Shown here: one piece after another, positions 31,986-57,799 of the stretch
Numbering within the stretch: position 1 is the stretch's first letter
Layout: every line of letters begins with the position of its first letter
Source: Tubulanus polymorphus
Lineage: Eukaryota; Animalia; Nemertea
Length of the DNA: 64,000 nucleotides
NCBI RefSeq assembly: GCF_964204645.1
Contig: NC_134034.1
Location: 8,010,962-8,074,961, forward strand
Direction: 5' to 3'
The notes under the pieces: generated by a model
What the model saw: only the letters and a program-made list of their open reading frames with translations
The model's database searches: none
Told to the model about the DNA's origin: nothing
Program-made: the position numbers and the translations under genes

Positions 31986-32119
31986 TATTACATACATTTC
32001 ATAGACATTTTTCCTTTTTTATACTATACACTATAATGAAACCTAAAATACTAAAATCAGAACTCAAAACATAAGCGCAACTCGAGGATTTAATACTGCA
32101 CCTTTAATTATTACTCTCC

Positions 32120-37045: not shown

Positions 37046-37225
37046 CTGTTTTATACTATAAATTGAAAAATAAGTAATAGGGAAAAATATTCCCTATTAC
37101 TGCCGGTGTCCGCTGCTGAGTCCTGAACCGTGTTTTAGTCTCTACCTTCGGTTACAGAGACATGCATGGACAGTATGTGTGGAGTATACTTCTAGAGGGC
37201 CACTTGTTGGACAAATTAATTCGTA

Positions 37226-37960: not shown

Positions 37961-38983
37961 TAAATTCGCTTGAAATCCGGATTTTTAATGCATACAGGCA
38001 GCATAATGAGGAAAACCTATTCACAAACCGTGCAAGCCAACTTAAACACTATGCTCAATATTCCCTGCAAGACGCAAAATATCTTATTTGAACGTTCATG
38101 TATAAAACATGGAGCAACTTTTCTTTTGTCAACACGTTGATGGGCGACGGACTATGGTATTCTCTGAAGGAGGTAAATTAAATTTGACAGCTAGTTATAT
38201 AAATGATGCAGCTTTTGGACAAAAGGGATCTAACTAAATTTCTTTTTAATGCACTGACACTGTGGAATGGAATGGATTGACCCCAATGGCATGCAGTAGG
38301 CCCCTACGTATGGGTCATACTGATTAGCGTCAACCAATTAATCTAAATCGGGCGAACCATTCAACAACTGTGAATAATTTATTTGCTGTGGCGTGATGAT
38401 AATTAGTTTTTTTTTAAAGAAATGACATACCAACTGTTAGGAAAATGTACCGATTCTTATTTTTAGACTACTACTGAATCTATAAAAGGAGGAGTCATAG
38501 ACAAAGTTCATTTGCTTAGCTGGAGACACTTCTTGTCAAGTACATCATCTCAAGTACTGGGTGTTTTGTAAGTTTAATTTCAGTATTTATTTATTAAGTG
38601 CTGTTCCATCGGACCGCAGTGCTTTCAAACTAGGCCCACCCCATAGGCTATGTAGTCCAGGGTGTATTAGCCACTATTCTTTTATATCCTACTAAAATGA
38701 GCGCACCTTTTTCTATTTTTAGATTCAGGCTTAGAATGTGCAAATTCTTTGAGATACTGAGAAATCAGATGGCACCAGTAAACTTCAACTCCGAAATTTG
38801 CAGCAGGATAGCTGAACGACACAATTTTTAAAAATAAAATGGCTATTCGAATGCTATTTCAATAATAACTTGATTCAACCAGAGAGAAATAAGTCAATTG
38901 TGGATGTACAGTACACGCACTTTTCTTCCCTGTTTCCTGGTACCTAATTTTTAGTCTTAAGCTTAGCGATATTCTAAGGTATG

Positions 38984-39155
38984 AGTAATTGTAAGAGTGG
39001 GGTTTCAGATCAGAGGTCGGGAGGTCGAGACACCACTCATCACCACAAGTAATTTTTTTTCCTTATAAATGGGGGAGAATGAACACCAACCAGAAAATAA
39101 TAATGTTAATGAAAATCAATATCATTGTCCATATTGTAAAAAATACATCGATAAA
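38984..39155 (+). repeat. Maverick left TIR (extends into the polB 5' end)
   Basis: Reverse complement of about 56562-56727. Confidence 0.9.
39049..39071 (+). promoter_or_regulatory. Representative copy of the element-wide TAATTTTTTT-N(4-8)-TAAATG gene-start motif
   Basis: GTAATTTTTTTTCCTTATAAATG; related copies at nearly all other gene starts in the element. Confidence 0.75.
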
Positions 39156-42100
39156 TCCCAAAAATCACGACATGAAAAATCTGCAAATCATATAAAAAAT
39201 GTAATAGATTTTGAAACTCCAGAAAATTCCAATGAAAGAAAAGAACGATTAGAAAATATGAATGTGGATGAAATAAAATGTGAAGTTTGTAATGAATTTA
39301 TAATAAAAAGGAATTATAATAGACATCTCAAATCACAAAAACATTATAAAAATTTAAATAAAAATGTTTTAGGATCAGAATATTTTGATAATAAACCTCA
39401 ACAAGTAAAAAAATCAACTTCAAAAACTAAATCCATTTCAAATAAACCTTACATGGAAAATGTTAGAAATTATATTGATTCACTAGAAATAAAAGATACA
39501 ATTGAAATTTTAGAAACATTACATAGTAAAATTGGTCCTGCAGCTATTATATTTAGATTTTTTAAAGGTACAACAATAGAAGATTATAGTAAATTTAATG
39601 AAATAATAGAAAAAATACTGGATTTGATAACAGATGTTGAATATCCAAAAATTAGTATCTCTGGGAAAGTAAGTTTTATAAAGTCAGAAGAAAAGATGAA
39701 TTATAATATTCAAACACTCTCTGAAGAAATAATTTCAAAAACACAAATAAAAGAGAAGTTAGAAAAAATATTAAATGAATTTAAACGTCATATTGAAGAA
39801 AGATATTTTGAGGGTTCTGGCTTAACATTGAATGAAATAATATATTTAGATTTAAATGTTTATAATACAAAAAGAAATAAAACATCAAAAAGTAATAAAA
39901 TGTTTAAAAATGATTCAAACTTTACAACAGAAAAGGATATTAAAGCATCATCTTATATTAAATTACCATTTATAACAAAAGCAGTAATAAATATTCAAAA
40001 TGAAGATAATAAATGTTTTCTATGGTCAATTATTAGTTGCTTACATCCATCACAGGAAAATGTTTGTAGAATAACAGATTATCGGAAATATGAAACATTA
40101 TATAAAATTGATCAATATCCAGTAACTATAAAAATGATTCCTAAAATAGAAAAAGTTAATAATTTAAAAATAAATGTATTCGAATTAATGCAATTACCAA
40201 AGACAAAAGGTGAAAATATTAAAGATTATACACTGGAAGCTTTATATTTAACAGAATATTATGATGATGAAAATGCTATAGATTTGTTATATTATAAAAA
40301 AGATGAAAATGAACATTATATGTGGTTAAAACAAATTGATTTATTCTTTAGAACAACAGAAAGTGATCATCATCGTAAAATTTATCTATGTAGAAAATGT
40401 TTATCTAAATTTATGACTGAGAATGCGTTACTAAAACATAAAGAATTATGTGATAATAAAGATTTTTGTAAATTAATAATACCAACAGAAAAAGATTATA
40501 AATTGAAATTTACTAATCATAAATTTAAGAATATTGTTCCATTTGTAATTTATGGGGATTTTGAATCGTTGAATAAAGAATTAACTAATCAAGATAGAAA
40601 AGAAATATATAACAAAAAGCAATTATTAAAATCAATGGATAAAGGAAATGAATTAAATGAAGACACAATACAAGACCCACCAATTATAAATACAATTAAA
40701 AAAGTTCATCAAAGAGCTGCTGCTTATGGAATTTATATAAAATCAAATTATCCTGAATTATATGAAAGTCAATATATTTCTTTTAGAGGTGAAAATGTAG
40801 TTAATGATTTTTGTGATAAAATGATTGAATTAGAAAGTGATTTTGCAAAATTATTAAACAAAAATAAAAGAATAGTTACGTCAAAAGAAGATGAAATTGA
40901 TTTTATTATGCAACTCATTGTTGTTATTGTGAAAAACGTTTTTATTCATTTGATAAAAAGTTAGAGATCATAATCATTTGAATTCAAAATATCGTGGAGC
41001 TGCTCATGAAGATTGCAATTTACAAGCTAAAAAAGTAAATTTCGTACCAATATTATTTCATAATTTATCAGGATATGATACCCATCTATTTATAAAACAA
41101 TTATCGGGAAAATTGGGCGCAATTAATCAAGAAATAGAAGAATATAATGCTATGAATGAAGCAAATGTAAGAAAATATGATTTTGAACTATTAGCTAAAA
41201 CATCTGAAAATTATATTTCATTTCAATTTGGTTGCATTAGATTTTTAGATTCTTATAGATTTCTAGCAAGTTCATTAGATAATTTATCAAAAAGTTTAGT
41301 TGATAATGATTTTATAATAACTCGATATTATTATCCAAATGACCAAGATTTTAAATTATTGAGATATAAAGGCGCAATTCCTTATTCATTTTATAAAACA
41401 CACAATGATTTTAATGTAACAGAATTATTAAAAGATCAATTTTATGATCAATTAAAAGAGGAGTATGTGAAAGACGAAGTTTTTAATAGAACATTAAATA
41501 TTTGGAACCATTTTAAGATGAAAAATCATGGCGAATTAGTTGATTTATATTTAAAATCAGAGGTTATGATATTGGCTGACATATTTGAAAAATTTAGAGA
41601 AGTTAATTTGAATCATTTTAATGTTGATCCTTGTTATTGCTACTCTAGTCCTGGTTTAACCTGGCAATGTGGTTTAAAATATACAAATGTAGAATTAGAT
41701 TTATTAAAAGAACCAGATATGGTTTTATTATTTGAAAAATCAATTAGAGGTGGAATTAGTGGTGTTATAGGAGATAGATATTTTAAAGCAAATGATGAAT
41801 ATAAATTATTATATATTGACGCCAATAATTTATATAGTTGGGCAATGATGCAACCTCAACCATATAAAAATTTTATATTAACAGAAGTTGAAAATGGTGA
41901 TAAAACTGATTGGGAAAGCGCAATTGCGAGTTTAAAAGATGAAGCACCAATTGGTTATTTCTTTGTAGTTGATTTAGAATATCCTGAAAATATAAAGTTT
42001 TAAACAAGAAACTTACCTTATTGCCCAGAACATTTAACTGTAGATGATAGTTATTTAAGTGAATACCAGAAGAAAATAAAACCGAAAGATCATGTTTTTA

Positions 42101-44134
42101 CAGAAAAATTAATACTTACTCAAAATAATAAATACAATTATATTGTTCATTATAGAATGTTAAAATTTTATCTAAAACAAGGAATGAAATTAAAGAAAGT
42201 ACATAGATATATTGAATATAATCAATCGAAGTGGTTAGAAAAATATATAGATTTCAATACTCAACAGAGAACCATATCAAAAACAGATTTCGAAAAAGAT
42301 TTTTTTAAATTAATGAACAATAGTTTTTATGGTAAAACATGTGAAAATATTAGAAATAGAAATGATATTGAATTAGTAAATAATTCTGAAAGATTAAGAC
42401 ACCTACAATCAAGTCCTAGACATTTAGGAAATAAAAGATTTGAAGATTATTTAACAGCAGTTAAATTAAAAAGAACATCAATGAAATTTAATAAACCTAT
42501 ATTTATTGGTTCGACTGTTTTAGAAGTATCAAAATTATTAATGTATGATTTTTATTATAATGTTTTACAACCACTTTTTGGGGAAAAGCATATTGAAATA
42601 TTATATTTTGATTCTGTAACAGCTGACACCCCAATATTATTAAAATGTAATAATAAAATATTGGTAAGAAGAATTTCAGAAATAATTCCAAAACAAAATG
42701 AATGTTATATTTCATATGGTGAAAAAGAATTAATACAAATAAATGGATTAATGGATGTTTGGACAAGAAATGGATGGAAAAAATTAAAGAATATTATTAG
42801 GCATAAAACAAATAAGAAAATCTATAGTGTTAGAACTAAATTAGGATTTGTAGATGTTACAGAAGATCATAGTTTAATTAAACGAAATGGTGATGAAATA
42901 AAACCAACTGATATAAAAATTGGAGATGAATTATTACATAAAAGATTTTTCCAAAGAATGAATCATATGTCATTTGATGAAATTATTGATAATATTTATA
43001 ATATAGAACCCGAAACATTGGAAGACAAAGAATATTTTATCAAAGGATTTTTCATGGGCGATGGTTCAGCAGGTGTGTATAATTATGTTTGGGGTAATAA
43101 ATATTGTTGGTATTTATGCAATCAAGACTTAAAATTATTAGAAAGAATTAAGAAATTCTGTGAAGAAGTTTATTCACATAAAACATTTAGAATCATGGAT
43201 GTTATGAAATCATCAGCAGTTTATAGAATACTTGTAAATAATCCTAAAGATTTTGCTATAAAATATAATAATGAATTCTATATTCATGCAATAGTGAAAA
43301 GTAATACTTCAACAAAAGAAAAGATAGTTCCAGATTATGTATTAAATGCAAAAAATAATTTAAGAAAATGGTTCTTCATTGGGTTCTATGCTGCAGATGG
43401 TTCAAAAAGTTTCAAAAACCGCAAAACAATATCTTTAGCTCAAAAAAGGAAAAGTTGCTATATCAGGATTGAATATATTATGCAATTCATTAGGTTTTAA
43501 TATGAATATTGGATTTATTAAATCTAAACCAAATTACTTTAATTTAAGCCATGTAGAAAATGAGTTAACAGAAGAAGTTAAAGATTTATTTGAAATATAT
43601 AACCCAACAGATTATGTTTATGATTTATCAACTGAGGATGGTACATTTAACTGTGGATTTCCATTAATAGCGGTCAATACTGATGCGTACATACTAAAAA
43701 TCAAGACAAATGACATAACAAAAGACTTAAAAACATTAAAACATCATTTTGATTTTAGCAATTATCCCAAAGATCATGAACTATTTAGCAATGATAATAA
43801 AAAGATTCCTGGTAAATTTAAAAATGAATTAGGGGGTGATGAAATGATTGAATTTGTTGGGATACGAAGTAAAATGTATAGTTACAGAACAAAAGATCAT
43901 GAAGCTAAAAAGTTAAAAGGAATAACAAAACATGTGGTTGATAAACATATAGAATTTCAAGATTATATAAAGTGTTTATATAAATCAATTGTAATGAAAC
44001 ACAAAATGAATTGTTTAAGATCAGAAGATCATGAGATGTATATTAATGAAGTTGAAAAAAATAGTTTAAATCCATTTGATGATAAAAGGCATATTTTAGA
44101 TGATGGTATAAAAACATTACCTTATGGTTATTAA
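39069..44134 (+). pseudogene. polB: Protein-primed family B DNA polymerase with N-terminal zinc fingers, an EndoVII-like insert and an intein; three lesions
   Basis: Exo I YGDFES, RDHNH...YRGAAHEDCNL, Exo II FHNLSGYD, motif A YIDANNLY, motif B KLMNNSFYGK, motif C YFD/TD split by the intein, KMYS and KKLKGI. Frameshifts near 40901 and 43445; in-frame TAA at 42001. Confidence 0.95.
42613..43678 (+). other. Intein with LAGLIDADG homing endonuclease inserted in PolB motif C
   Basis: YFD|SVTADTPILL (block A), VDVTEDHSL (block B TxxH), IKGFFMGDGS and FIGFYAADGS (LAGLIDADG blocks C and E), YVYDLST (block F), IAVN|TDAY (block G, +1 Thr). Confidence 0.93.
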
Positions 44135-44186
44135 AATGGGTCTATATCATCAAACTCGAAATCACTATTGGCTTCTTCATTTTCAT

Positions 44187-45443
44187 TTAATTGTTTAGGT
44201 TCTTCCATTCCATTTTTTTTTCATTTAAATAAAGTTCTATCTTGTTCCACATTTCATCTCGCTCTCTTTGTTTCTTTTTGTTTGTTAATTCGTCAAATGG
44301 AATTATAATATCTAGGTTTAAATAATTTACAATCTTATTTAAAAAGAATTCATAATTTATTGAATCTGTTATTCTATTTTCCAAATGATACATTAATATT
44401 TGTTTAAATATTTTTTTTATATTTTCCATATCTTCTTCTGTTAATTTAGGTTTTTCATAATAATCGTTAAATAATGAATATAAATACATTTTCTTTTGTT
44501 TTGTGTTAAATGTTGACGGAATAATTGTATTTATAATATCTTTTTTAGTTATTTCACCATTTTTATTTTCTATTATTTTCATTTTTTCAAGCCATTGCAT
44601 ATATTCTGGTGTATGATCTTCTATAGAAAATATTTTAAAAATTTCATCAAGATAATTTAATTTTGGATCTATGAGAAAATTTCTAGTTTTTTCTTCACCC
44701 CATAAATTCTTTTGCCATCCACAATCAACACAAAATAACACAGTACCTTCTTGCCTTAAGGTCGCATAAATACATTGTGGGCATTTTTGTTTATAATTTA
44801 TTGGTAATAGATCTTCTTTAAGCTCTTGGTATTTTCTTACGTTTTCTTTATGTTTTATTGTTCTATTATGTAGATTTGAATTACTTGTTGTAATAATCAA
44901 TTTACAATATTTACAATAATATGTTTTTCTTGTTAATTCATTATATTGTTTTTCTAACTTTTCAACTGTTTCATTATTATCTGGTAACGTTTTCTCATAT
45001 TTTATTTTTTCTAATAAATTATTTTTTCTTTCATTAAATTCAGTTTCAAATTTATTAGAAATTTTATCTATATGTACTTTACGAAATTGATGATTCTCCC
45101 AATCTTCTATATTTTCAGGGCTATATTTTATTCGACAAGGCTCACAGAAATGATCTTTTATATTATCCTTATCATAGAATAAGAAAGGTCTTTTCCAAAT
45201 AACTTCAGGTTCAACTTCGGCAGAATTACTATTACTTTCATTACTATCAACATTAGCCGTTGCGCCATTAATTCTACACTTCTCTGAATGTTTTTTAACA
45301 TAATTTCTTGAGAATAATTTATTACATTTTGGGCAGTTTATTTTAGGGGGTTTATAATTTTCATCATGTTTTTTCATATGTCGAGCCATATTACTTTTTC
45401 TTAGAAGTTCACCACAAATTTCGCATGCTATCTTCTCATCCAT
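44187..45443 (-). CDS. Zinc-finger protein fused to a poxvirus A2/VLTF-3-like late transcription factor domain
   Basis: About four N-terminal C2H2/C2HC fingers; C-terminal CPQC-x13-CVDC ribbon, NF...KLNYL, KIFKQI...SINYEFFLNKI and a terminal W, recalling vaccinia A2 (CxxC-x13-CxxC ... TINYSFFLDKI) as compared from memory; ORF intact. Confidence 0.75.
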   Translation of the reverse strand: MDEKIACEICGELLRKSNMARHMKKHDENYKPPKINCPKCNKLFSRNYVKKHSEKCRINGATANVDSNESNSNSAEVEPEVIWKRPFLFYDKDNIKDHFCEPCRIKYSPENIEDWENHQFRKVHIDKISNKFETEFNERKNNLLEKIKYEKTLPDNNETVEKLEKQYNELTRKTYYCKYCKLIITTSNSNLHNRTIKHKENVRKYQELKEDLLPINYKQKCPQCIYATLRQEGTVLFCVDCGWQKNLWGEEKTRNFLIDPKLNYLDEIFKIFSIEDHTPEYMQWLEKMKIIENKNGEITKKDIINTIIPSTFNTKQKKMYLYSLFNDYYEKPKLTEEDMENIKKIFKQILMYHLENRITDSINYEFFLNKIVNYLNLDIIIPFDELTNKKKQRERDEMWNKIELYLNEKKMEWKNLNN

Positions 45444-45510
45444 TTATTTAGGAAAAATTTTATTAAAATTAATTTTTAGTGATGATGGTAATTTTTTTAT
45501 GTTATAAATA

Positions 45511-46266
45511 ATGGTAGAATTAAAAGAATACAGAATATTTGTTGATTCTAGAAGACTTACTAATTATAAATCACATAATTTACTAGTACAATTAGATAGA
45601 GAATTCAAGAATTGTGTTGATTTAAAATTAATAAATATAAGTTTATGTAACTCATTTTATAATATAACGGCTAAAACTTTTGAACATAGAGACTTTTTAA
45701 TTCATATTGGAAATAAAAATAAATGGTTTCATCTATTTTTAAAACCAGGATTATAAAATTTAGAAACATTAGCCCAAGAAATTAATCAGAAAGCACGATT
45801 AAAACTTGAAAGTGAAGATAAATTTTCAATTAGATTTATAAAAAGTGATAGTTCTGATAAAATTAAAATAAAGTTAGCCAATAAACAAAATAAATTTATG
45901 GTAAACAAACCAATAGCTAAAATGTTAGGAATTAAACCGCGTATTGTTACTGGAAACGTAGAAGGTAGCTCAAATATAATACCTTACACACATTTCTATA
46001 TTTATTGTAATTTAATTGACCCAACAAAAACATTTGAAGCAAGTAAAGATACAATTTGTATTTCTGGTTTATTAAATATTTTACCATTAAAAAATGTCAA
46101 ACAATTTGGAACTCAAATAAATTATAATTTAACTGAATGTGATTTCAAACCTTGCATTCCTAAATTTAATAATTTTAAATTAGAAATAAGAAATCATAAT
46201 GGTTATTTAATTGATTTGAATAACTTTCCTGTGATATATGAATTAGTTATAAGATGTAAAGAGTAA
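45511..46266 (+). pseudogene. Minor capsid (penton) protein with one in-frame stop
   Basis: IFVDSR, NSFYNI, FYIYCNLI, LEIRNHNGYLIDLNN pattern; the two ORFs share a frame and are split by TAA at 45754. Confidence 0.75.
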
Positions 46267-46282
46267 TTTTTTCACTATATAA

Positions 46283-46528
46283 ATGAATATAACTGTTGGA
46301 CCGAGTATATGTTTTGGGTTTGATTTTAAACGTGAGAAAGAAATGAAATTTAACATTAATGATGTAATTACACAAATCAAAAATATTGTATTTTCTAATG
46401 AAACAACATTTAAGTATGAAAAAACAATAGATAAAGAAACTTTAAATGTAGAAAAGATTACTAAATTAATTAGAGAATCTTTAAGATTTTATGAATTAGA
46501 TGAAGATTTTATCATCGATGATATTTAA
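46283..46528 (+). CDS. Maverick hypothetical protein (possibly truncated)
   Basis: ORF starting at the element's conserved TAAATG motif. Confidence 0.55.
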   Translation: MNITVGPSICFGFDFKREKEMKFNINDVITQIKNIVFSNETTFKYEKTIDKETLNVEKITKLIRESLRFYELDEDFIIDDI

Positions 46529-46639
46529 AAAATAATAATTGAAATATATACAAATGAAACTAGTAATGAAATAAATGTTGAATTAATCATAAATAAGTTA
46601 ACTAAATATTTTGAAGATAGTAATTTTTTTGATTAATAA

Positions 46640-46861
46640 ATGAGTGATAATAAGTGGTTAATAACTGGATTATATAATGGAGCATTACTATCAGTTGGAA
46701 CTGTTGGTCATTCAATGGTATTAAAAAAAGTATTCAAAATGGGAAGTGTTAATGTTGATAGATTTGATATAAATGATATTTTAAAATTAACATTAGCAGT
46801 TACTTTATCTAATTTAACAATTGATTATTTGGAAAAACAAAAATATATTCCTCCCATATAA
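46640..46861 (+). CDS. Small hydrophobic Maverick protein
   Basis: TAAATG start; two hydrophobic segments. Confidence 0.65.
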   Translation: MSDNKWLITGLYNGALLSVGTVGHSMVLKKVFKMGSVNVDRFDINDILKLTLAVTLSNLTIDYLEKQKYIPPI

Positions 46862-46885
46862 ATGCATAATTTTTTTACTAAATAA

Positions 46886-47308
46886 ATGGCTTCTGCAATT
46901 ATAACTATTATAGGATCGGCAATTGTTAACGCTTTGGCATTTACTGGTGGTGGATATTTATTTAAACATTTTGATAAAAATAGTTCATTAGGAGAACAAA
47001 GAAGACATAACTTAGCATTAGAGAAATACAATAAAGCAGCAGAAGAATATAGAGAAAAGAGGCAAAACTATATGGATTATATTAACAAAGAATTATATGA
47101 TCAGAAGATTTCACATAGAGATTTTCAATCAGTTGATGATGCAATGAGTTTATATAACGCAGTAACAAATAAAGAAAAATTACATCTATACAAACCTAAA
47201 TTATCAGATTATTTTACCCCAAGTAATGAACAGAAGAAATATGAAATAATTTGGATTTTAGGTGGAACAGTTATTGTTATATTTGTTGCTTATAAGTTTA
47301 ATAATTAG
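46886..47308 (+). CDS. Maverick membrane-associated protein
   Basis: N- and C-terminal hydrophobic helices flanking a coiled coil with EQRRHNLALE; TAAATG start. Confidence 0.7.
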   Translation: MASAIITIIGSAIVNALAFTGGGYLFKHFDKNSSLGEQRRHNLALEKYNKAAEEYREKRQNYMDYINKELYDQKISHRDFQSVDDAMSLYNAVTNKEKLHLYKPKLSDYFTPSNEQKKYEIIWILGGTVIVIFVAYKFNN

Positions 47309-47329
47309 TAATTTTTTTTGCTAAATAAA

Positions 47330-47763
47330 ATGAAGATAAAGTTGATAGTATTGATATCATTCCTCATGATATAAATAAAACTAAATTAAAAATATATTTA
47401 GAAAAACAAATATTAGAATTTGAAAGTGACTTAAAGATAAAAAAGAAAAAATATTTAAAAAGTTAAATTATATATTATTTGATTATAAGTGGTTCGGTTA
47501 CAATTAGTTCTGTAATAACATTTCTAGCAATATTCAGCCCATTAACACCTTTAGCTATATCAATTGGTGTGTTAGGATTAAGTTCAAGTGTTTTAACTGG
47601 CATAAGTTCAAAATTAAATATAAAAAGTAATAAAGAAAAAATTAAAACTAATATAAAAGAAATTAATAAATTAAAGAACACACTAGATTATATCATAAGT
47701 TTAAATGGTCATATAACAGTTGAAGAACAAGATAAATTATTAAAAGAATTAATAAATTATTAA
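47330..47763 (+). pseudogene. Two-TM Maverick protein, disrupted N-terminus
   Basis: Motif-associated ATG at 47330; the open hydrophobic ORF spans only 47479-47763. Confidence 0.55.
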
Positions 47764-47779
47764 TTTTTTTATTAAATAA

Positions 47780-49168
47780 ATGGTAGATAGTTTTCCAAAA
47801 GCTTTCCAATATAATAAATCAATTAAACATAATATTCCAGCAATAGATTTTAATAAAGATATTACATATAGAAATGAAGTTTTAGATTCATTAACTAATT
47901 TAGAAATTTATGTTACTGAAAATAATAATTTTAATGCAAAGATGGAAAATATATTTCATGTATATCTAATTGATTTTAAAAAATTGAAAGATGAAAAACA
48001 GTGGTTATTAAAATCTAATATGAAGTATTGGCAGAACCAATTAAATTTTGCTGTTTATTGTGCAACAACGGGTTGTGGAATTAGTTGGAATGATCATTTG
48101 AATAATTGTAAATATAAATTAATTCAAAGTTTATTTAGATTTCATACATACTTTCAAATCAGAATAATATTAAATGAATTAGAGTGCGCTTTACCAGGAT
48201 CTAGGTATTTTAAAGAATTAGATAATAATATTAATTTATCAAAGTTTTATAAAATTTGTAATGAATTTAATATAGATATAAATAATTCTGATTTTAGAAC
48301 AAAAATTGGAACAATAAGATCACTTCCTTGCCCTAAAAAGATTGCAGAATATTGTGCACTTCCCATACCATCTAATAGTTTGTATAATATCTATAGTCAT
48401 AAATTAGGTTATGGTAAAATAGAAACTAAGGATTTAGAAACATTAAATTTCAATAAATTACCGACATTTTATGATAATTTAAAACAAGAAAACAATAATA
48501 GTTGGGTTTAATTTATTTTAGAAAATAATGAAGGTTTTACAAAATCAGGTATACAAAGAATAAATCAATCTATTAGAACTTATTTGATATGTATTCTAGG
48601 GGCACAAGTTGAAACAAGATCCCCAATAATTGGAAATTTAAATACATCATTTGATACGCAGAAACAATTCAAAGTATTATTTGAAGATTCCATACATAAT
48701 GATAAAAATAGATCGATTCCAGAAAACATTGTAAGATATCAAAATTATTTAGATAAATCACATATTAGATTAAATTATTGTATAGGCCCTAATCTATTAA
48801 TTATTTCTAATGATTTAGTATTAAAGATGGGAAATATAATTGGTTATAATAATCTAATTAAAACTGCAACAATTAATAATTCATTTGGATTGAATGATAT
48901 AAATAAAAAGATTATCACTGCTCCAAAATTAATGGAAGGTGAAAAAATTAAAAAACACATTCAATCAACAGAAACTAAAACTTAGAATATTAAATTAAAT
49001 AATGATTCTGAAATAAAAGATTATAATACTACAGAAAATATTAAAACTGATAATATTCAACATGATATAATTAAAACTGATAATGATAATAAATCCCATG
49101 AAAATACTAAATTAGCTATAACGTGTATAGGAATTGTAATCGGAGGAATATTATATTTTAAATTTTAA
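47780..49168 (+). pseudogene. Maverick protein of unknown function with C-terminal TM; two in-frame stops
   Basis: WQNQLNFAVYCATTGCG and FRFHTYFQIR; single frame with stops at 48509 and 48983, ending LAITCIGIVIGGILYFKF. Confidence 0.7.
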
Positions 49169-49185
49169 TTTTTTTTATTATATAA

Positions 49186-50652
49186 ATGGATGTAGAAGGT
49201 GGAGAAGATATTGGAATGGATAATTTTGATGAACCTGGCATAACTGATGAACAACCACCTGATTTTGATGAAACAAGTTTTAATGATGGTAATGAGCCAG
49301 AATATAATAATAATTTGAATATGCCTGATTATATTAAAAATGCTGAATCACAATTAAATCCTGAAAATTTAGACCCAGATTTAGTAAAACAAGATTTAGA
49401 TAATTTAAACAAAATACCTAAATTAGAACGTATAATTGAAAATTCTAAACTTAACATAAATGATGAAGACGTTGGACTTTTAGTAGATCAATTAAAATTT
49501 TTAGATAATGGTAAATGTTATTATCGTTTGAAAGGTGATTATTATATTGATATCACTTATAAAAATAATAAAAATAAAATATTATCAGAATCAACTTTAG
49601 AAAAATTAAAACCAGATAGAATTAAAATAATAAGTAATAGTAATGAAATAACTGATGTTACACAAAAAGAAATAGATGATAATATAGACGTATTTAAACA
49701 AAGAATTAATGAATTATTTGAAATAATCAAAAAGCAATCAGAAACAGAAACAACTTCTGAACAGAATATAACTTCCAAAAATAGTAAACTTAAATCAAAT
49801 AAAGTTCCAATTGAAAAACTTTTACCGAATGGATTAATTGATGCAACAGATCAACAATTAGAAGATTTAAATATATTTTCTGATGAAGCAATTAGAGAAA
49901 TTATTAGTATAAGAAATGAAGCTGATAAAATTGCACATAATAAAAGTATGAGATCAAAAAATTATGTATTTGGAAAAAGAATTAACTAATTTTTAACTAA
50001 TTCAAATAAAGAAATAGAACAAATAAAGTCTGATTTAGATCATCAAGTAATTGATGAAATAGAATATAGGCAAAAAGAATTACGTTTAGAAAAAGAAATT
50101 AGTAATTTAAAAGATAATTTAGAAGTACAGAAAGAAGAAATTAAATTATTATTAAAATCATATGATTATAATATTAATAGATTAAAAATTATTTTTAAAG
50201 ATTTGTTGATTAAACCAAATTCTGAAATATCATTAAAAGATAGAATAAAGTTATTATTTAAATTAGAAGGAATAACAATTCTTTCAATTCGAACAGCTGT
50301 AACTATGTTATTTACAACAATTGGTTTAGCAATATCAAATGCTTTGAAATCTACTCCTACTCCCAATAAACCGGATAAACCCCCGAATGATAATAATTCT
50401 ATACAAGATAAAGTTAAGGATGGTTCAAAGAAATTAGCAAAATATTTATGGGAACTATCTAAAAAATCTGCTGCAGCTTTACCAGAAATTATTGCATCAA
50501 TTGTATGTTTTATATTGAAATCTGCTGGGAATATTCTTAACTTTGCTGCTGAACATATTGTTTTATTTTTAATTACAGTTGTAAGTGCTATTATTTTTGG
50601 GTTAGTAAATATGATATCAAAAAGATATCAAGAAAAAAATAATAAAAAATAA
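49186..50652 (+). pseudogene. Acidic, coiled-coil protein with a hydrophobic (membrane-active-like) C-terminus; one in-frame stop
   Basis: ORFs 49186-49989 and 50203-50652 share a frame; C-terminal amphipathic/TM helices; lies just upstream of the MCP. Confidence 0.65.
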
Positions 50653-50676
50653 ATAATTAATTTTTTTGTTTAATAA

Positions 50677-51924
50677 ATGAGTGGGAGTTATATAAGTCCT
50701 TCTAAGATTTCTAGAATATCTAATGCTATTAAAGCAGAAAGATCACATCATATAATTACTCATAACCCTTCAAATATTAATCCCGATGAAACTTTATATG
50801 TTAGAATTCCTAGATTAACACAAAATACTTTTTATGTTCCAAATAGTATTTATTTATCAACCGATATAAAAGTAACTGGCCATGATAACAATTATGTTGT
50901 TGATAATGTTGGAAGATATTTGATTAAAAAATTAACTATTAAGATTGGTCCAGAAACAGTTTTCTCATTAGATGATTATAATTTATTTATGCATTATAAA
51001 GATTTATGGTTAACTAAAGAAAATAGAAATAATATTATATTTCAGGGTATTCAATCAGAAAACCATAATAAATTAAGATCAGGAGCTAATGACGCAATAG
51101 TAACTCGTGTCACAGATAATTTGATTAAAAAGATTTATGGAAGCAAATATAAAATTCCATTAGATTTTGAATTGATAAATAATAATGCACCTTTATATAA
51201 ATACGCAATTCAAGAAGATATTATATTTGAGATAACATTTGCTCCTGTAAATGAAATTGTATTATCTAGCGTTGTTAAAGATATGGGTTATAAATTATCG
51301 AATATATGTTTAGAATATAACACAGTAACTAATGAAAATATTGCTAGCACAATTCAAACTCAATACAATCAAGGATTTTCATTATTATATGATTATATTG
51401 ATAAATTTAAAACCGTAACTATTAATGCAAATGATGAAATAATTAATGAGAATATTAACTTCCCGAGAAGATCTATTAAAGGTATATTAATATTTTTTAC
51501 CATTGCAACATATTCTAATGGTGCAATAAAGGTAGATAATTATTATAATCCTGAAATAACAAAAGTAGAAATAACTATCGAAGGAATAGCAAATAAAATA
51601 TTTTGCCAAGGAATGAGAATGATAGATCAGTGGCCAGAAATTAGAAAACATTTTATGAATGAAAAAGTAAAATCATTTGAAAATTGTAATATTAATCAAA
51701 TTGATTATTATACCAGTAATAAATATGCATTATGGTTAGATTTTAGAACAACAGAGGATAATTCATTACATGGTTCTGGAAAAAAACTACAAAACACTAA
51801 AGATGGAATACAATTATTCATGAAAAAGAAAAAAGGAGACAAAAATTTCAAAATGCACATTTATATTATATCTGACGCACAATTAAATATTGTAAATTCA
51901 CAGTTAGATAGTATTCAATATTAG
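50677..51924 (+). CDS. Major capsid protein (double jelly-roll, Maverick type)
   Basis: Intact 415-aa beta-rich ORF with HNPSNINP..LYVRIP, VVDNVGR, YALWLDFR..DNSLHGSG; size and position next to integrase and ATPase. Confidence 0.8.
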   Translation: MSGSYISPSKISRISNAIKAERSHHIITHNPSNINPDETLYVRIPRLTQNTFYVPNSIYLSTDIKVTGHDNNYVVDNVGRYLIKKLTIKIGPETVFSLDDYNLFMHYKDLWLTKENRNNIIFQGIQSENHNKLRSGANDAIVTRVTDNLIKKIYGSKYKIPLDFELINNNAPLYKYAIQEDIIFEITFAPVNEIVLSSVVKDMGYKLSNICLEYNTVTNENIASTIQTQYNQGFSLLYDYIDKFKTVTINANDEIINENINFPRRSIKGILIFFTIATYSNGAIKVDNYYNPEITKVEITIEGIANKIFCQGMRMIDQWPEIRKHFMNEKVKSFENCNINQIDYYTSNKYALWLDFRTTEDNSLHGSGKKLQNTKDGIQLFMKKKKGDKNFKMHIYIISDAQLNIVNSQLDSIQY

Positions 51925-51953
51925 AAATATAAGTTAAAATTAACAATATATAA

Positions 51954-53081
51954 ATTGGAGGTAAAAAAACTCCTAATACTAAAGAACAATATTTAAGAAA
52001 TTTATATTACAACCCTGAGAGTTCGGTTGCTTATTCTTCTACCAAAAATATATGGCGTCAAGTAAAACAAGATAAATTAGATAAGATAATCCCACAAAAT
52101 TTAGTTAAATATAAAGATATAAATGAATTTATGTTAGAACAACCAACATATACAACACATAAGAAAATTGTTAGAAAATATAAAACTCGTAAAACTATGG
52201 TAAGTTATGTAGATCAACAGTGGCAAGTAGATTTAATTGATATGAAAAATGTTAAGAAAGATAATGATGATTATTGGTGGCTATTGAATATAATTGATAT
52301 TTTTAGTCGTTATGTATGGAGCTTCCCACTTTATAGAAAAGATGCTGTACAAACATCAAATGTTTTAAGAAAATTTCTTTCGGATGATAAACTAAAACCA
52401 GAAAAAATACAATTTGATGATGGAAAAGAGTTTGATAATTCACTTGTTCATGAACTCTTAGATAATCATAATATTAATTATTTTTCAACAAAATCGGATA
52501 AAAAAGCAGCAGTTGTTGAACGATTTAATAGAACATTAAGAACAAGAATGTGGAAATATTTTACAGCAAATAATACTTTTAAATGGATTGATGTTTTGCC
52601 AAAATTGATAGAAGGATATAATAATTCTTATCATTATTCTATTGGAATGAAACCTATTGATGCTAGAAAACCTGAAAATGCTGAAATTGTTTGGAATAAT
52701 TTATATGGAGCATTTCTTGTAGATGATTTTGGTGAACCTAAATTTAAAGTTGGTCAAAATGTTAGAATTTCTAAGTATAAAAAGATATTTGATAAAGGAT
52801 ACGATCGAAATTTTACTATAGAAATATATAAAATAAAAAAGGTAATAACAACAAAACCATATGTCTATAAATTAGAAGATTTAGATGGTGAAGAAGTTGA
52901 TGGCTACTTTTACGAAGAAGAATTAAGTTTAACTACTGAAAATCTAGAACAAGAATATAAAATTGAAAAAGTATAAAAAACAAAAACTATTAAAAGAAAA
53001 AAATATTCTTTAGTAAAATGGGTTGGATGGCCAGATAAATTCAATGAATGGATATTATCAAGTAAAATTAAAAATATATAA
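51954..53081 (+). pseudogene. Retroviral-like (rve) integrase with C-terminal chromodomain
   Basis: LYYNP, WQVDLIDM, IDIFSRY, QFDDGKEF, VVERFNRTLR; LVKWVGWPDKFNEWI follows the in-frame TAA at 52974; start codon apparently mutated to ATT at 51954. Confidence 0.92.
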
Positions 53082-53690
53082 ATGAATAAGGAATTATTCA
53101 TATTTGAGCCTCATAATATGTTAATGTCTGGTGTAACAAATTGTGGAAAAACTTATTTTATATTAAATTTATTAGAAACTGTTTATGAAAACTATTTTGA
53201 TAATATAGTATTATTTTGTCCAACATATGAATTTAATCAAACTTATGATAGAAATATTACTAGGAATAATAAATTTATTGTATTAGATCCTAAAACAGTA
53301 AAAGAAAATTTAAATAATTGTATTAAAATAGCAATTGATATTTATAAAGGATCAAATACATTATTTATCATAGATGATTGCGCAAATTTACATGATTCAA
53401 AAGTTAGAGAAAGTGAGTTATGTTATCTAGCTTTCTCTGGGAGACATTTTGGGATAACAACATGGGTTTTAAATCAAAAATATAATTCAATTGTTAAAGA
53501 CTTTAGGGAGAATATAAGATTTCTAGTTTTATTCTACAATAAAGATAGAAAATCAATGAAAAATGCACTTGAGGAAAATGATATTATTCCACATGATTTA
53601 CATAATGAATATATGGATAAGTTGAAAAATATTAAAAGATCAAAATTACTATTTAGATTACAACACCCATTTAAATATGAATTTATTTAA
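53082..53690 (+). CDS. DNA-packaging ATPase (FtsK/HerA, A32-like)
   Basis: Walker A GVTNCGKT, Walker B LFIIDD, GRH...LNQ motif; intact. Confidence 0.9.
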   Translation: MNKELFIFEPHNMLMSGVTNCGKTYFILNLLETVYENYFDNIVLFCPTYEFNQTYDRNITRNNKFIVLDPKTVKENLNNCIKIAIDIYKGSNTLFIIDDCANLHDSKVRESELCYLAFSGRHFGITTWVLNQKYNSIVKDFRENIRFLVLFYNKDRKSMKNALEENDIIPHDLHNEYMDKLKNIKRSKLLFRLQHPFKYEFI

Positions 53691-53945
53691 ATTCAATTAG
53701 TTTGTTAATCTAGTTGAATTCTAGTTATTGGTAGTTGTAACAAAAATCAACTAGATTTTAACAATATTGTAACTAGCTTGTTAATCTAGTTTAATTCTAG
53801 TTACATTCTAGTTGAATTCTAGTTATTGGTAGTTGGAACAAAAATCAACTAGATTTAACAAGAAATAAACAAAAATAACAATATTTCAACTAGCTTGTTA
53901 ATCTAGTTGAATTCTAGTTACATTCTAGTTGAATTCTAGTTGCAA
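53691..53945. repeat. Intergenic tandem array built from ~11-bp CTAGTT-core units
   Basis: Repeated TTCTAGTTGAA, TTCTAGTTACA and AATCTAGTT within larger ~100-120-bp blocks. Confidence 0.8.
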
Positions 53946-53973
53946 CATCACAACTAATTTTTTTGTTATATAA

Positions 53974-54547
53974 ATGGTAGGTGAAAAGAAAATAAAATCT
54001 AAAAATGGTGATGTTCCAATTGAAAAAACTTTAGATGATTTAGGAATAACAGAAAACAAATTAATTCCAGATGATGGTGCTTTAAATAATGTTACAACAA
54101 ATAATAATTATGAATATTATCTTTACTGTAAACATCAATTAGAAATATTAATAGCATCTGGAAAATGTAAAAATTTTGTCGGTAAAAATTTAACTTATAA
54201 TGAATTAGATACAATGAAATCAGATGAAATTTTAGATTATTTAAGATTTATGAAGCCGCGAGAACAGCTAGAATTAATGACGCGATATCAGAAAATGTAG
54301 TAAAAGGTTATAGTAAATTATGTAATTATATTCCGATTCAAAAAATGATTATTTAGTTATGACTGAATTAAATAAATGGATTGGATATTTATCATTTCAA
54401 TTAGGTGGATTTATGACATTATTATCAACTGGGGTTATAACATTTTCAAATATTGAAAGTAAAAATATTTCTATAATAAATGAGCGAGGTGAAAGAAGTG
54501 AAGGAATTAACTGTGAAGAAAAAACCGAGAACTCAGAAACAAATTGA
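53974..54547 (+). pseudogene. Maverick hypothetical protein, frameshifted
   Basis: TAAATG start; ORFs 53974-54300 and 54359-54547 appear to be pieces of one gene. Confidence 0.5.
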
Positions 54548-54824
54548 ATGGTCTCGGCAATTAGGAATTAAATCACAAGAATATAAAAAAGCTGTAAAAG
54601 AAAAAATAAGTAATAAAAATGTTAATAAAAATAGTGAAAATATTGTTATTTCTACTCCTTCTGATAATAGAATATTTGATAAATATTTATATTTTACAGT
54701 TGGATTTGTAATTGTATTCATTTTGATTGGGTGTAATTGGTATAAGAAATCAAATAAAATTCATGATATTAATAATTCTGAAATGCTATCAAAAATGAAA
54801 ATACTTCTGAAATTCCAAAATTGA
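54480..54824 (+). CDS. Basic N-terminus plus single-TM Maverick protein
   Basis: TAAATG start, KKKPRTQKQIEWSRQLG, hydrophobic YLYFTVGFVIVFILIG. Confidence 0.6.
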   Translation: MSEVKEVKELTVKKKPRTQKQIEWSRQLGIKSQEYKKAVKEKISNKNVNKNSENIVISTPSDNRIFDKYLYFTVGFVIVFILIGCNWYKKSNKIHDINNSEMLSKMKILLKFQN

Positions 54825-55971
54825 CAATAAAAAAAATGGATTAATATTTTAGAAAAAAAGCAAAAAAAATAATTTTTTTTAATTAATTGAATATCTCACT
54901 ACTTTTGTCTATCTATGCGGAGCAATTAAATTGTCCAGATAAGTCATTTCGGATTCTAGATATTCATTATTTTTATTAATTTATTTTGTTTTTACTTGAA
55001 TATTGTATTACAGTCGTTTCTTATTATTAGTTTTTTCTTAAATTGAAAGATGGCAGCACTGGGTGTGATGCTAAAATGAATATTTGAATTTGAATTTGAA
55101 TTTGTTTATCAATTAACATAGTAATTGATTACTAATTTGATTAAAAATTATATCATAATTAAGTTAAAAATCCATAATTCATTTATCAGTTTTCATTCTT
55201 ATATTCTTTTCATTCGGAATAATTTATAATTTCAAATTTCATATATTTTTTTAACACCAGCAACATTTACTTAGGTGTTTTAGCTAAGTATATAAGGCAA
55301 TTCATTCAACCACTGGAGTGCCGCCGGGCTTGGCTTGCAGGGGCATTTCGAAAATGCACCTTTGTCCACCCTCCGTGGTTCTCCTTCAGTTTCGACTTTC
55401 GATCCTCCTTTCGGGGGTAAGGGGTTGATAGGAAATGCATTAGGCGCCTTTAATATAATGTGTTTCCTGTCAACCATTGAAGGAGAATTGGTGAGGTGTG
55501 GGTCACAGGGGTGTAATTAGAAATGCTTGGGGATAGGTATCTCGTGGCGCCTCTCAATAACGGGATGCTTATCCCCTAAAAACTCTGTGAGTCAAGTCGG
55601 GTGGTTTTGCTAAAACTTACCGTAAAAACATTGAAATATTCCTTTTAATCACGAGAGAATGATGACTATCCTCCTGTCGTCACGGCCGAGCTAATTTAAA
55701 TAAACCTCGCTTTCAGCAACCAATGAAAACGTGGTGGTTCAATGCCGGCTAACTGGCTTGTGTGTGTTGTATGTACTGCGTGCTTAATATATAACTGCTA
55801 GCTATCCAATATAACAACAACGTTGTGCAACACCTGTTTGATTGATCAATATTTAAATGAAGCACTCTCTTATAATAACATGTAACAGATGTTTGACTGT
55901 ACGATTGTAGTTGTTTATAAAACGACGAAGGTCATTTTGGATTCTAGATATTCATTATTTTTATTTTTTAT

Positions 55972-56298
55972 TTAATCAACAATTTCTAAATCATGATGAC
56001 CATCTTCATTTTTCCCATGATATATTATTTTAAATCCTACTAAATCTTTCAATTCCTCTGTACTCAATGAAACCCATTTATCGGGTAAAAACACTTTAAA
56101 TTCTCGTGATGTACTAACATTACAGTAGCTTAAATTAGCTGATACTTTCTCTCCATATTTAGTTTTTATCTTTTCTAATTTCAATATTTTATGTTCAATT
56201 TCTTTTGTAACATCAACTAACTTTTTTATTTCAAATTGTTTTTTTGCTGGTTTTATTCTGTTATTTATTGTTGCTAAGAATGCTTTTCTATCTCCCAT
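55972..56298 (-). CDS. Small Maverick protein (possible OB-fold ssDNA-binding protein)
   Basis: Intact 108 aa with IKTKYGEKV and KVFLP; preceded by a copy of the TIR/polB upstream sequence. Confidence 0.55.
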   Translation of the reverse strand: MGDRKAFLATINNRIKPAKKQFEIKKLVDVTKEIEHKILKLEKIKTKYGEKVSANLSYCNVSTSREFKVFLPDKWVSLSTEELKDLVGFKIIYHGKNEDGHHDLEIVD

Positions 56299-56466
56299 TT
56301 ATAAGGAAAACAAATTACTTGTGGTGATGAGTGGGGATTACTTCCCCTGTATATAACAAACACGCTATTAACCGTTCTCACCCAAGCCTCACAGCATCTA
56401 TTTATCCAGGTACAGTTAACACACGCGCAGCTGTTGTTACGCGCACTCACTGTTTATGTGTGTCAC

Positions 56467-56727
56467 AATTTTACTGCGTAATATTTCTAAAATTTCAATT
56501 GTATCTTTTATTTCTAGTGAATCAATATAATTTCTAACATTTTCCATGTAAGGTTTATTTGATTTATCAATGTATTTTTTACAATATGGATAATGATATT
56601 GATTTTCATTAACATCAATTTGTTCTGTCTTATTCTCTTCCATTTATAAGGAAAAAAATTATTTGTGGTGATGAGTGGTGTCTCGACCTCTCGACCTCTG
56701 ATCTGAAACCCCACTCTTACAATTACT
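56467..56727 (-). repeat. Maverick right TIR, including an internally deleted copy of the polB 5' end
   Basis: ORF 56437-56643 (VNENQYHYPYCKKYIDKS|NKPYMENVRNYIDSLEIKDTIEILE) matches two separate parts of the PolB N-terminus. Confidence 0.88.
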
Positions 56728-57799
56728 GGTATGCTAGTGGATTTCATTAGAATATGAAGCAATGGAAACAGAATTCTAGCCAGAGTTAAGCGAACTATTG
56801 ATTCTGATATAGCCTAATGTAAGAATTGATTTCCTTTGTGTACTCTTGCAGAATATGTATTATTTCAAGCTGTTAAATAATATAGTTAGACAAACGTCCA
56901 ATTATTGGATCTTTCTTGTTGACTCGTTTAATTTTGTGAGTTAAGAGTTCCACTCAATCCACAATGTGCAGTGCCTAGCCTTCATCTACACTAAAGCCAA
57001 GCCTGTGTATGGGAAAATATCGTTCGACTCCTATAGGCCAGACAAATCAAAGCATGCAATACATTGCGGATAATAGTCTCCGGCAAGTCGAAAGAGAAAG
57101 TAAACCAGGTTTTACCCCGTACCCTACCGGGGAACAAAGACACTTAAAGACTCCTTCCTCCTGGTAGAAATTGTTGAAATATGGCACCCAATCGTAGCAA
57201 TGCTAAGTACACTATATTATGACGGTTGAACCTTTATTAACGAATTTCAATGACACCGAAAATAGAATCAAAATAATCATTAGTTCCATGCTAGCACTTA
57301 ATTTGGGTTATCAGGTTCAGCCTAACTGTACTTTCATTCAGCTACTACTTGTATGAGACTTGGCAATGATAAGTTGCAAGAAATCACCAAACATAAGAAA
57401 AAATATTGTGAATTAATATTACTGTAATTAAGAATTTATTCAAATGAAGTGATAACTTCATTGTTAGATCGTACCGGTATATGCACATAAAACTATGGCA
57501 AAAAACACATCTAACAATCCACGCAATCCGCAATCGATCAAGTCGATCATGACGACGACCTTAAGGCATGTCTCTGTAATCGAAGGTAGAGCATAAAACA
57601 CGGTTCAGGACTCGTCAGCGGACACCGGCCCAGAATGATTTTCAAAACGTGTATTGTCGGTACCTAGCACGATTTCAGCGTTTTTCGGGTATTCCCTGAA
57701 ATTTCGGCGTTTTTCGGAAATTCCCTGAAATTTCAGCGTTTTTATTTCAGCGTTTCAGCTTTTCAGTGTTTCAGCGAAGTTCAGGAACCGTAGAAATAG

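What the first reader, a model, noticed from the sequence alone, without database searches (positions are those of the whole stretch)
38984..56727. Endogenous Maverick apparently wired for poxvirus-type transcription: a candidate virophage-like parasite of a pox-like virus
Seen in the sequence: a complete Maverick (6-bp TSD, TIRs, PolB, integrase, ATPase, two capsids) with no RNA polymerase. It carries (i) a VLTF-3/A2-like factor, (ii) T-tract...TAAATG at essentially every gene start and (iii) a PolB intein at the site also used by large-DNA-virus PolB inteins. Established: poxvirus late promoters are a T-rich tract, a short spacer and TAAAT(G), and need A1, A2 and G8; the virophage mavirus integrates in the host genome and uses its helper's late promoter. 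Inference: this element is silent until a pox-like virus supplies cytoplasmic RNA polymerase, and it carries its own late factor to redirect that machinery. Polinton-like hyperparasites of insect poxviruses have been described, so novelty depends on host and clade, which I cannot determine here.
Basis: partly seen in the sequence, partly recalled or inferred. Interest (0 to 1): 0.92.

Follow-up and report, generated by a model that had tools for sequence, protein, structure and literature searches.

The report
Maverick clade with poxvirus-style gene starts
A virus-like jumping element in what is likely a marine invertebrate belongs to one lineage whose genes nearly all start with the poxvirus late-promoter signature and which carries a poxvirus-type transcription factor, so it likely borrows the RNA polymerase of a still-unseen pox-like virus.

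Summary
The element is real: 17,744 bp, inverted termini, a 6-bp target duplication, and an empty site in an independent read set. This copy is decayed, one of an estimated 30-90. Thirteen of 16 gene starts are TAAATG, with T peaking 9-11 bases upstream, as in vaccinia late promoters. The signature is a lineage trait, not AT bias: 52 of 61 ORFs in 16 related loci, which form one capsid clade, versus 9 of 450 in other Mavericks (1 of 56 AT-rich). ORF 45443-44187 ends in a VLTF-3/A2 domain that groups with poxvirus A2. Against novelty: VLTF3 in polintons, poxvirus-associated polinton-like viruses and pPolB inteins are in print. Against the mechanism: no helper virus or RNA was found, RNA-polymerase-less viruses keep VLTF3, and a sister lineage pairs another VLTF3 with another box. 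Best reading (0.55): a virophage-like parasite of a pox-related virus. Main rival (0.27): its TFIIB-like factor steers host Pol II. This scan noted Mavericks with their own TBP/TFIIB elsewhere, but no TAAATG/VLTF3 case.

The parts
38978..38983 (.). left 6-bp target-site duplication
   Evidence: empty site
38984..39157 (+). left TIR, holding the promoter-like box and start of PolB
39069..44134 (+). protein-primed PolB with N-terminal zinc fingers; broken into four reading-frame pieces in this copy
42613..43678 (+). intein with LAGLIDADG region in PolB motif C; frameshifted in this copy
44187..45443 (-). 418-aa protein: C2H2/U1-type zinc fingers, then a zinc ribbon plus VLTF-3/A2-like helical domain (44190-44819); open frame
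45511..46266 (+). likely minor capsid (penton) gene; in-frame stop in this copy
46283..50652 (+). block of conserved Maverick genes of unknown or membrane-associated function (starts 46283, 46640, 46886, about 47330, 47780, 49186); several carry stops
50677..51924 (+). major capsid protein, open frame
51954..52976 (+). rve integrase; no in-frame start at its promoter-like box in this copy
53082..53690 (+). A32-type packaging ATPase, open frame
53654..53952 (.). internal array of short palindromic repeats (11-nt period in larger units)
53974..54824 (+). two conserved genes of unknown function, the first likely broken
55972..56298 (-). 108-aa conserved ORF behind a 44-nt duplicate of the terminal promoter box; fold not resolved
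56437..56727 (-). right TIR region with a deleted copy of the PolB 5' end (68-aa ORF)
56728..56733 (.). right 6-bp target-site duplication

Best explanation
This is a decayed copy of a multi-copy Maverick from one capsid lineage whose gene starts carry a poxvirus late-type box (A-rich at -15/-14, T at about -10, TAAATG on the start codon) and which encodes an A2/VLTF-3-type factor, so intact members likely depend on the RNA polymerase and capping enzyme of a co-infecting pox-related virus. Shown: anatomy, boundaries, copy abundance, clade-wide motif, and the factor's family and affinity. Inferred: transcription starts inside TAAAT, so slippage would add the 5' A leader that an mRNA with almost no leader needs; the element's factor would bias or supply late initiation; the integrated copy would be quiet until the helper infects, then replicate with its own PolB, package with its own capsid and ATPase, and reinsert with its integrase, as mavirus does. 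The factor branches beside or within Poxviridae depending on the tree, so the helper is predicted to be a deep pox relative rather than a described poxvirus.
For: TAAATG at 52 of 61 ORF starts in 16 clade loci, including 22 of 27 at GC 30% or more; 9 of 450 in 67 other Maverick loci, 1 of 56 in the AT-rich ones. Positive and negative controls: chordopox core regions 248 of 588, entomopox-type record L084 6 of 17, other large-virus loci 13 of 155. The motif-bearing loci form one MCP clade, SH-aLRT 96. T is 85-100% at -11 to -8 in the window and 73-88% at -10/-9 in the clade, flat at internal TAAATG sites; vaccinia late promoters have TAAAT(G) on the start codon and T at -10 (PMC11980589), and the vaccinia polymerase core itself reads TAAA (PMC12917281). 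The box sits too close to the ATG to be a Pol II TATA box (established spacing of about 30 nt, recalled). Factor: the only hit outside three clade-like homologues among 1.84 billion proteins was an entomopox-type VLTF-3; a profile of four Maverick domains scores chordopox A2 at median 51.9 bits, entomopox 42.9, other large viruses 8.3; chordopox ORFs hit this domain and nothing else in the element or clade loci (5 hits from 213 ORFs); tree support 100/100 for Maverick plus pox against 33 others. Internal AATAAA is not avoided in coding strands (O/E 0.93-1.05). Two clade loci carry a deoxynucleoside kinase.
Against: No helper virus sequence, transcript or particle was seen. VLTF3 is kept by viruses that lost RNA polymerase and are thought to use the nucleus. 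The domain's best solved match is TFIIB (Z 7.3, rmsd 3.2, 92 aligned; middling), so it could recruit host Pol II. A sister lineage (L039, L058/L059) has a different VLTF3 and a different box, T-tract then TATA (8 of 12 and 8 of 16 starts, background 1-2%), so factor-plus-box pairing may be the elements' own system; an AU test does not reject one origin of both Maverick factors (p 0.19). The 33 non-pox VLTF3 rows were picked by one recalled motif, omit asfar-, ego-, irido- and mriyaviruses, and long branches meet in both trees. Factor and motif are seen together only in this element, in L001 (N-terminal part, 96% to P0121) and, by equal contig length only, P0123 with P0027. AATAAA is also not avoided in AT-rich non-clade Mavericks (O/E 1.08), so that test does not discriminate. 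The upstream T profile matches chordopox only modestly (r 0.52). Even PolB, which would be needed early, has the late-type box. A parasite of a cytoplasmic virus must still reach the germline nucleus.
Confidence: 0.55

Rival explanations
1. Self-sufficient nuclear expression: the element's TFIIB-like VLTF-3 derivative, with its added zinc fingers, binds the T-tract box and positions host RNA polymerase II; factor and box were taken together from a pox-like ancestor and no helper is needed today.
For: Zinc ribbon plus cyclin-box fold like TFIIB. VLTF3 persists in RNA-polymerase-less nucleocytoviruses (also conserved in mriyaviruses). Sister lineage pairs another VLTF3 with another box. Unchecked earlier notes describe Mavericks with their own TBP/TFIIB. 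Tens of germline copies are easier to make in the nucleus.
Against: TAAAT fused to the ATG leaves about three leader bases unless the polymerase slips, which is documented for poxvirus and yeast virus-like-element polymerases (PMC6211774) and not known to me for Pol II. The factor's own gene has the same box, so something else must start it. No TBP- or VLTF2-like partner was found by Pfam.
Confidence: 0.27
2. Helper-dependent, but the helper is not a poxvirus relative: another cytoplasmic polymerase source that reads TAAA, such as an asfarvirus- or egovirus-like virus or a linear virus-like element with its own polymerase.
For: Yeast linear elements use a TAAAN initiator with slippage. In one search the factor lies outside chordopox plus entomopox. 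T runs of 5 or more are depleted in coding strands (O/E 0.51), which would also fit asfarvirus poly-T terminators (PMC7458399). My paper search for marine-invertebrate Chitovirales found nothing.
Against: The asfarvirus late initiator is TATA, not TAAAT. The factor scores best against poxvirus A2 by sequence, profile and fold. Long A runs are depleted as well.
Confidence: 0.12
3. The motif is not a promoter: it is AT bias, stop-start coupling, a poly(A) signal of the upstream gene or a translation context.
For: The element is about 23% GC; several boxes contain AATAAA and some begin with the upstream gene's stop codon.
Against: Absent from AT-rich non-clade Mavericks (1 of 56) and present at 30-44% GC. 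No upstream stop abuts the ATG; gaps are 16 nt or more. The box stands before the first gene in each TIR and on both sides of divergent pairs 19-30 nt apart. The strict pattern hits 11 sites against a shuffle mean of 0.36 and none in 46 kb of flank (pattern defined after seeing the data).
Confidence: 0.06

Closest known systems
Maverick/Polinton elements of animals, group 2 (Polintoviricetes)
   Same: TIRs, 6-bp TSD, pPolB, rve integrase, A32 ATPase, capsid genes, no protease found; relatives swap PolB for an SF1 helicase, as described for group 2 (10.64898/2026.06.19.733378, passages). VLTF3 in some polintoviruses is reported (PMC11131425, section 8).
   Different: Clade-wide TAAATG box and a poxvirus-A2-type factor; I found neither described in ten searches of the held library. 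Group 2 placement is inferred, with no labelled references in my tree.
Entomopoxvirus-associated polinton-like viruses AHEV_PLV1/2, CBEV_PLV1 (PMC11296320)
   Same: Small polinton-related genomes proposed to parasitise poxviruses; two are divergent members of the mavpol2 capsid lineage (sections 5 and 7).
   Different: About 12 kb, from insect occlusion bodies, with a protease and no rve integrase reported; the main text has no occurrence of promoter, motif, VLTF or TAAAT (supplements not read). Here the link is inferred from promoters and a factor, with no physical association.
Virophage mavirus with CroV
   Same: Integrated, integrase- and pPolB-bearing, no polymerase, reactivated by a large virus (abstract starts); sharing of the helper's late promoter is recalled.
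   Different: Different capsid class, animal host inferred, its own late factor, helper unknown.
Vaccinia late and intermediate promoters and A2/VLTF-3
   Same: TAAAT(G) on the start codon, T near -10, A-rich stretch further up; zinc ribbon plus VLTF3 domain.
   Different: The Maverick box is far more uniform and precedes about 85% of genes; the factor is about 22-29% identical to A2 over the domain and fused to extra zinc fingers; no A1 or G8 counterpart was found.
Yeast cytoplasmic virus-like elements pGKL1/2 (PMC6211774)
   Same: TAAAN initiator with slippage-made 5' A leaders on small linear elements.
   Different: The system encodes its own polymerase and capping enzyme and uses an early-type upstream sequence; integrase and capsid genes are absent (recalled).

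Membership tests
Maverick/Polinton | TIRs with AG...CT ends and 6-bp TSD | tested here: met
Maverick/Polinton | protein-primed PolB | tested here: met
   PF03175 above cut-off, gene broken in this copy
Maverick/Polinton | rve integrase | tested here: met
   PF00665 above cut-off
Maverick/Polinton | A32-type ATPase | tested here: met
   PF04665 E 3.7e-13
Maverick/Polinton | double jelly-roll major and single jelly-roll minor capsid proteins | tested here: inconclusive
   Capsid_N E 0.013, 920 homologues beside Maverick core genes, no PDB sequence hit; penton hit E 0.018; neither was folded
Group 1 Mavericks | adenovirus-type cysteine protease | tested here: not met
   no Pfam hit in the element's ORFs or L001's
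Group 2 Mavericks | placement in the group 2 capsid or ATPase clade | not tested
   no labelled reference rows; inferred from gene content
VLTF-3/A2 family | N-terminal C4 zinc ribbon | tested here: met
   four invariant cysteines align with entomopox VLTF-3
VLTF-3/A2 family | PF04947 score above the curated cut-off | tested here: not met
   no hit at E 1; too divergent for this profile
VLTF-3/A2 family | fold and profile similarity to VLTF-3 | tested here: met
   Foldseek cowpox VLTF-3 E 2.1e-5, TM 0.61 (model built with entomopox rows in its alignment); atlas 0.93
VLTF-3/A2 family | activates late transcription | not testable with these tools
   needs biochemistry
Poxvirus late promoter | TAAAT(G) overlapping the start codon | tested here: met
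Poxvirus late promoter | conserved T about 10 nt upstream | tested here: met
   against PMC11980589
Poxvirus late promoter | start within TAAAT and non-templated 5' A leader | not testable with these tools
   no RNA holder listed
Poxvirus early terminator | specific avoidance of TTTTTNT in coding strands | tested here: inconclusive
   O/E 0.37, but other long T and A runs are depleted too
Virophages (mavirus, Sputnik) | virophage-type capsid and maturation protease | tested here: not met
   capsid homologues sit in Maverick loci; no protease found. It may work like a virophage but is not filed as one
Virophages (mavirus, Sputnik) | replication depends on a co-infecting large virus | not testable with these tools
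   no helper identified

The most novel reading that the evidence does not exclude
Marine invertebrates carry in their germline a whole lineage of integrated virophage-like Mavericks tuned to an undiscovered, deep-branching poxvirus relative, each with a captured A2-type factor that takes over the helper's late transcription; the sister lineage's T-tract/TATA box and different VLTF3 mark a different helper, so Maverick promoter boxes can be read as a record of which large virus each lineage parasitises.
Probability: 0.4. Interest if true: 0.9.

Novelty: new variant of a known kind. Interest (0 to 1): 0.72.

Why it matters
Whether animal Polintons need helper viruses is an open question in print (PMC5499653). 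This clade gives a short, uniform box and a named factor family that turn it into a reporter or in vitro transcription test. If the reading holds, it predicts an unknown pox-related virus of marine invertebrates and a heritable element that could interfere with it. If the rival holds, it shows a poxvirus-type late factor working with host Pol II, which would also be new and would bear on what VLTF3 does in polymerase-less large viruses.

Tried and rejected
No whole genome is held, so sibling copies could not be read. No RNA holder listed; runs X7-X9 gave next to nothing, which is no evidence on expression. Word-index search with the VLTF domain found nothing. IMG/VR holds no relative of the capsid or of the Maverick factor at this sensitivity. 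The intein scan gave one spurious RNase H-like hit. PDB sequence search with an entomopox-type VLTF-3 and Foldseek against PDB gave nothing significant. Tight divergent gene pairs looked clade-specific but occur in other Mavericks too, so I dropped them as evidence for a viral polymerase. TTTTTNT avoidance and AATAAA content do not discriminate. The 108-aa ORF folded poorly (pLDDT 58) and was not searched. The clade's kinase had one 37% relative, uninformative. No VLTF3 domain was found by my four profiles at E 0.001 in the 83 loci; Pfam then found two sub-threshold hits among 59 non-core ORFs scanned (53 from non-clade loci), and all loci are partial. Look-ups of earlier findings by place, sequence and three word sets gave nothing.
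Full report
What was checked. The stretch 38984-56727 is an AT-rich island of about 23% GC with inverted termini and the hexamer GGTATG on both sides. In raw DNA reads of run X6, another sample under the same species label, 421 reads join 38977 to 56728 with six letters fitting either side. The flank is itself a high-copy repeat, so these may be paralogous empty sites, but they fix the boundaries. Depth inside the element was 108-955 per bin, mostly 230-330, against 3.5-9 in the lowest bins of 17300-37250; taking those as single copy gives roughly 30-90 copies at 90% identity or more, an estimate. The host is not identified; a marine invertebrate is inferred from short matching contigs in a marine metagenome run, a named bivalve capsid homologue at 39% and the retroelement content.

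Gene content. Pfam supports pPolB, an intein with a LAGLIDADG region, rve integrase and an A32 ATPase; the capsid hit is weak. No RNA polymerase or protease family was hit. This copy is decayed: PolB is in four pieces, and the minor capsid, integrase and several conserved genes are interrupted where the relative L001 has open frames. At many positions nearly all family reads differ from this copy, so much of its divergence is private.

The motif. Thirteen of 16 gene starts are exactly TAAATG; the minor capsid, the gene near 47330 and the integrase have TAAA within a few bases. Three of the 13 are copies of one terminal box. Counting from the T of TAAAT, A is 92% at -15/-14 and T 85-100% at -11 to -8; TAAATG sites that do not start an ORF show no such profile (n 131). 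A strict pattern, defined after seeing the data, hits 11 sites, against a mean of 0.36 in 200 shuffles (maximum 5, length-scaled) and none in the flanks.

The motif is a lineage trait. A capsid alignment fetched 80 of 237 metagenome loci and 3 contigs in prokaryote genome bins. In the 16 loci with capsid identity of 50% or more, 52 of 61 ORFs of 100 aa or more start with TAAATG; in the other 67 loci 9 of 450; in the 15 AT-rich ones among them 1 of 56; in clade loci at 30% GC or more 22 of 27. These loci are related, so the counts are not independent. In a capsid tree of 75 rows (12 loci dropped as short or identical), the positive rows fall in one clade of 17 with SH-aLRT 96; its one negative row, L015, has TAAATG a few bases upstream of the capsid start. 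For scale: 248 of 588 ORFs in 37 chordopox core regions, 6 of 17 in L084, 13 of 155 in 121 other large-virus loci. PMC11980589 (passages) describes vaccinia late promoters as TAAAT, usually followed by G on the start codon, with a conserved T ten bases upstream. PMC12917281 (passages) shows the polymerase core reading TAAA directly. The clade's T profile correlates with chordopox at r 0.52.

The factor. Pfam does not recognise ORF 45443-44187 as VLTF3. An exhaustive search with its last 210 residues gave four hits in 1.84 billion: three Maverick-like proteins and P0124, which scores 87 bits on Pox_VLTF3 and groups with named entomopoxvirus VLTF-3. The ESM Atlas gave Pox_VLTF3 clusters at 0.93, 27 of 30 hits. 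A model (pLDDT 77; alignment included five entomopox rows) matched cowpox and entomopox VLTF-3 near the top, with giant-virus VLTF3s close behind and an unnamed protein first. Against solved structures the best match was yeast TFIIB, Z 7.3, among cyclin-box folds, a middling score. A profile built only from four Maverick domains scored 36 chordopox A2 at median 51.9 bits, 5 entomopox 42.9 and 69 other large-virus VLTF3 8.3 (best 40.8); shuffled controls stayed at or below 14. In the tree of 47 rows, Maverick plus pox rows stand against 33 others at 100/100, with the Mavericks outside chordopox plus entomopox; on the C-terminal part alone they join entomopox at SH 81. The non-pox rows were chosen by one recalled motif and long branches meet, so affinity to pox is supported but the donor is not fixed.

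A result that cuts both ways. Sister loci L039 and L058/L059 (capsid 40-43%) carry a short VLTF3-like gene without zinc ribbon (Pfam E 4e-5 and 7e-4, below cut-off) and no TAAATG starts (0 of 11, 0 of 14). They have a T-tract followed by TATA before 8 of 12 and 8 of 16 starts, background 1-2% (pattern defined after seeing them). Their factor groups with non-pox rows, though one origin with the TAAATG clade's factor is not rejected (p-AU 0.19). TATA is the asfarvirus late initiator (PMC7458399, passages). This fits different helpers for different lineages, and it also fits each lineage running its own factor and box.

The intein spans 42613-43678 inside motif C and is absent from nine relatives, including clade member L008. 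Read depth across it is of the same order as across the rest of PolB, so it is common in this family. Its equivalence to large-virus PolB intein sites is recalled, not tested. Homing-endonuclease or intein insertions in polinton pPolBs are already noted (PMC11071308, passage).

Mechanism. Shown: anatomy, abundance, box, factor family. Inferred: a start inside TAAAT leaves almost no leader unless the polymerase slips on the three template Ts, as poxvirus and yeast virus-like-element polymerases do (PMC6211774, passages). With no polymerase of its own, the clade most likely uses that of a pox-related virus (0.55). The main rival (0.27) is host Pol II steered by the TFIIB-like factor, since polymerase-less nucleocytoviruses keep VLTF3 (10.64898/2026.08.29.747986, passages; PMC11253617, passages). 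A non-pox helper (0.12) and a non-promoter role (0.06) remain.

What is known. VLTF3 in a subgroup of polintoviruses is reported (PMC11131425, section 8, citing Krupovic and Koonin 2016, which I did not read; PMC8502044, legend passage). Polinton-like viruses in entomopoxvirus occlusion bodies are reported (PMC11296320: abstract, sections 5 and 7, and a term search with no hit for promoter, motif, VLTF or TAAAT; supplements not read). Helper dependence of Polintons is called unresolved in PMC5499653 (passage). Also seen as passages or term searches: 10.64898/2026.06.19.733378, 10.1101/2024.03.23.586382, PMC12220804, 10.64898/2026.10.13.758929 (no term hits). Mavirus papers were seen only as search listings. 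Ten searches found no report of poxvirus-type promoters or an A2-type factor in Mavericks; the library lacks most subscription journals, and preprint supplements are closed.

Verdict. A real and clade-wide feature, a new variant of a known kind, with a testable but unproven helper.

Noticed in passing
window 35051-37101: A 2,051-bp AT-rich element with the same AGTAAT start as the Maverick, a 12-nt perfect TIR and a 6-bp TSD; empty site in 1,601 reads. One 159-aa ORF (35894-36373) with TAAAT two bases before its ATG has no Pfam or atlas hit. Likely a non-autonomous Maverick-type satellite.
   Followed up: partly
L039 5082-5576; L058 6543-7049: Sister Maverick lineage with a short VLTF3-like gene and its own T-tract/TATA gene-start box.
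   Followed up: partly
L001 10345-10981 (-); L007 2898-3380 (-): Deoxynucleoside kinase genes in two clade members, in L001 head-to-head with the VLTF3-like gene.
   Followed up: partly
window 39069-56727 and clade loci: Long T and A runs are much rarer in coding strands than synonymous shuffles give (T6 O/E 0.28, A7 0.34; AT-rich non-clade 0.70 and 0.65); could reflect a slippage-prone polymerase.
   Followed up: partly
window 53654-53952: Array of short palindromic repeats between the ATPase and the next gene; a similar stretch lies in the 2-kb element near 36441-36486.
   Followed up: no
window 54824-55972: About 1.1 kb, partly GC-richer, with no conserved ORF near the right end; family reads show deletions and loose ends there.
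   Followed up: no
window 37102-37963 and 57566-57629: The Maverick and the 2-kb element sit in nested high-copy repeats with their own inverted ends and a 7-nt tandem array.
   Followed up: no
window 5693-10314, 21854-30637, 58269-59195: Decayed retroelements: an RT-bearing element (DIRS-like, label recalled), BEL/Pao- and Gypsy-like blocks (labels recalled) and a LINE endonuclease.
   Followed up: no
L081-L083; P0045: Maverick capsid contigs inside prokaryote genome bins and one protein named for a bacterium; likely contamination from eukaryotic DNA.
   Followed up: no
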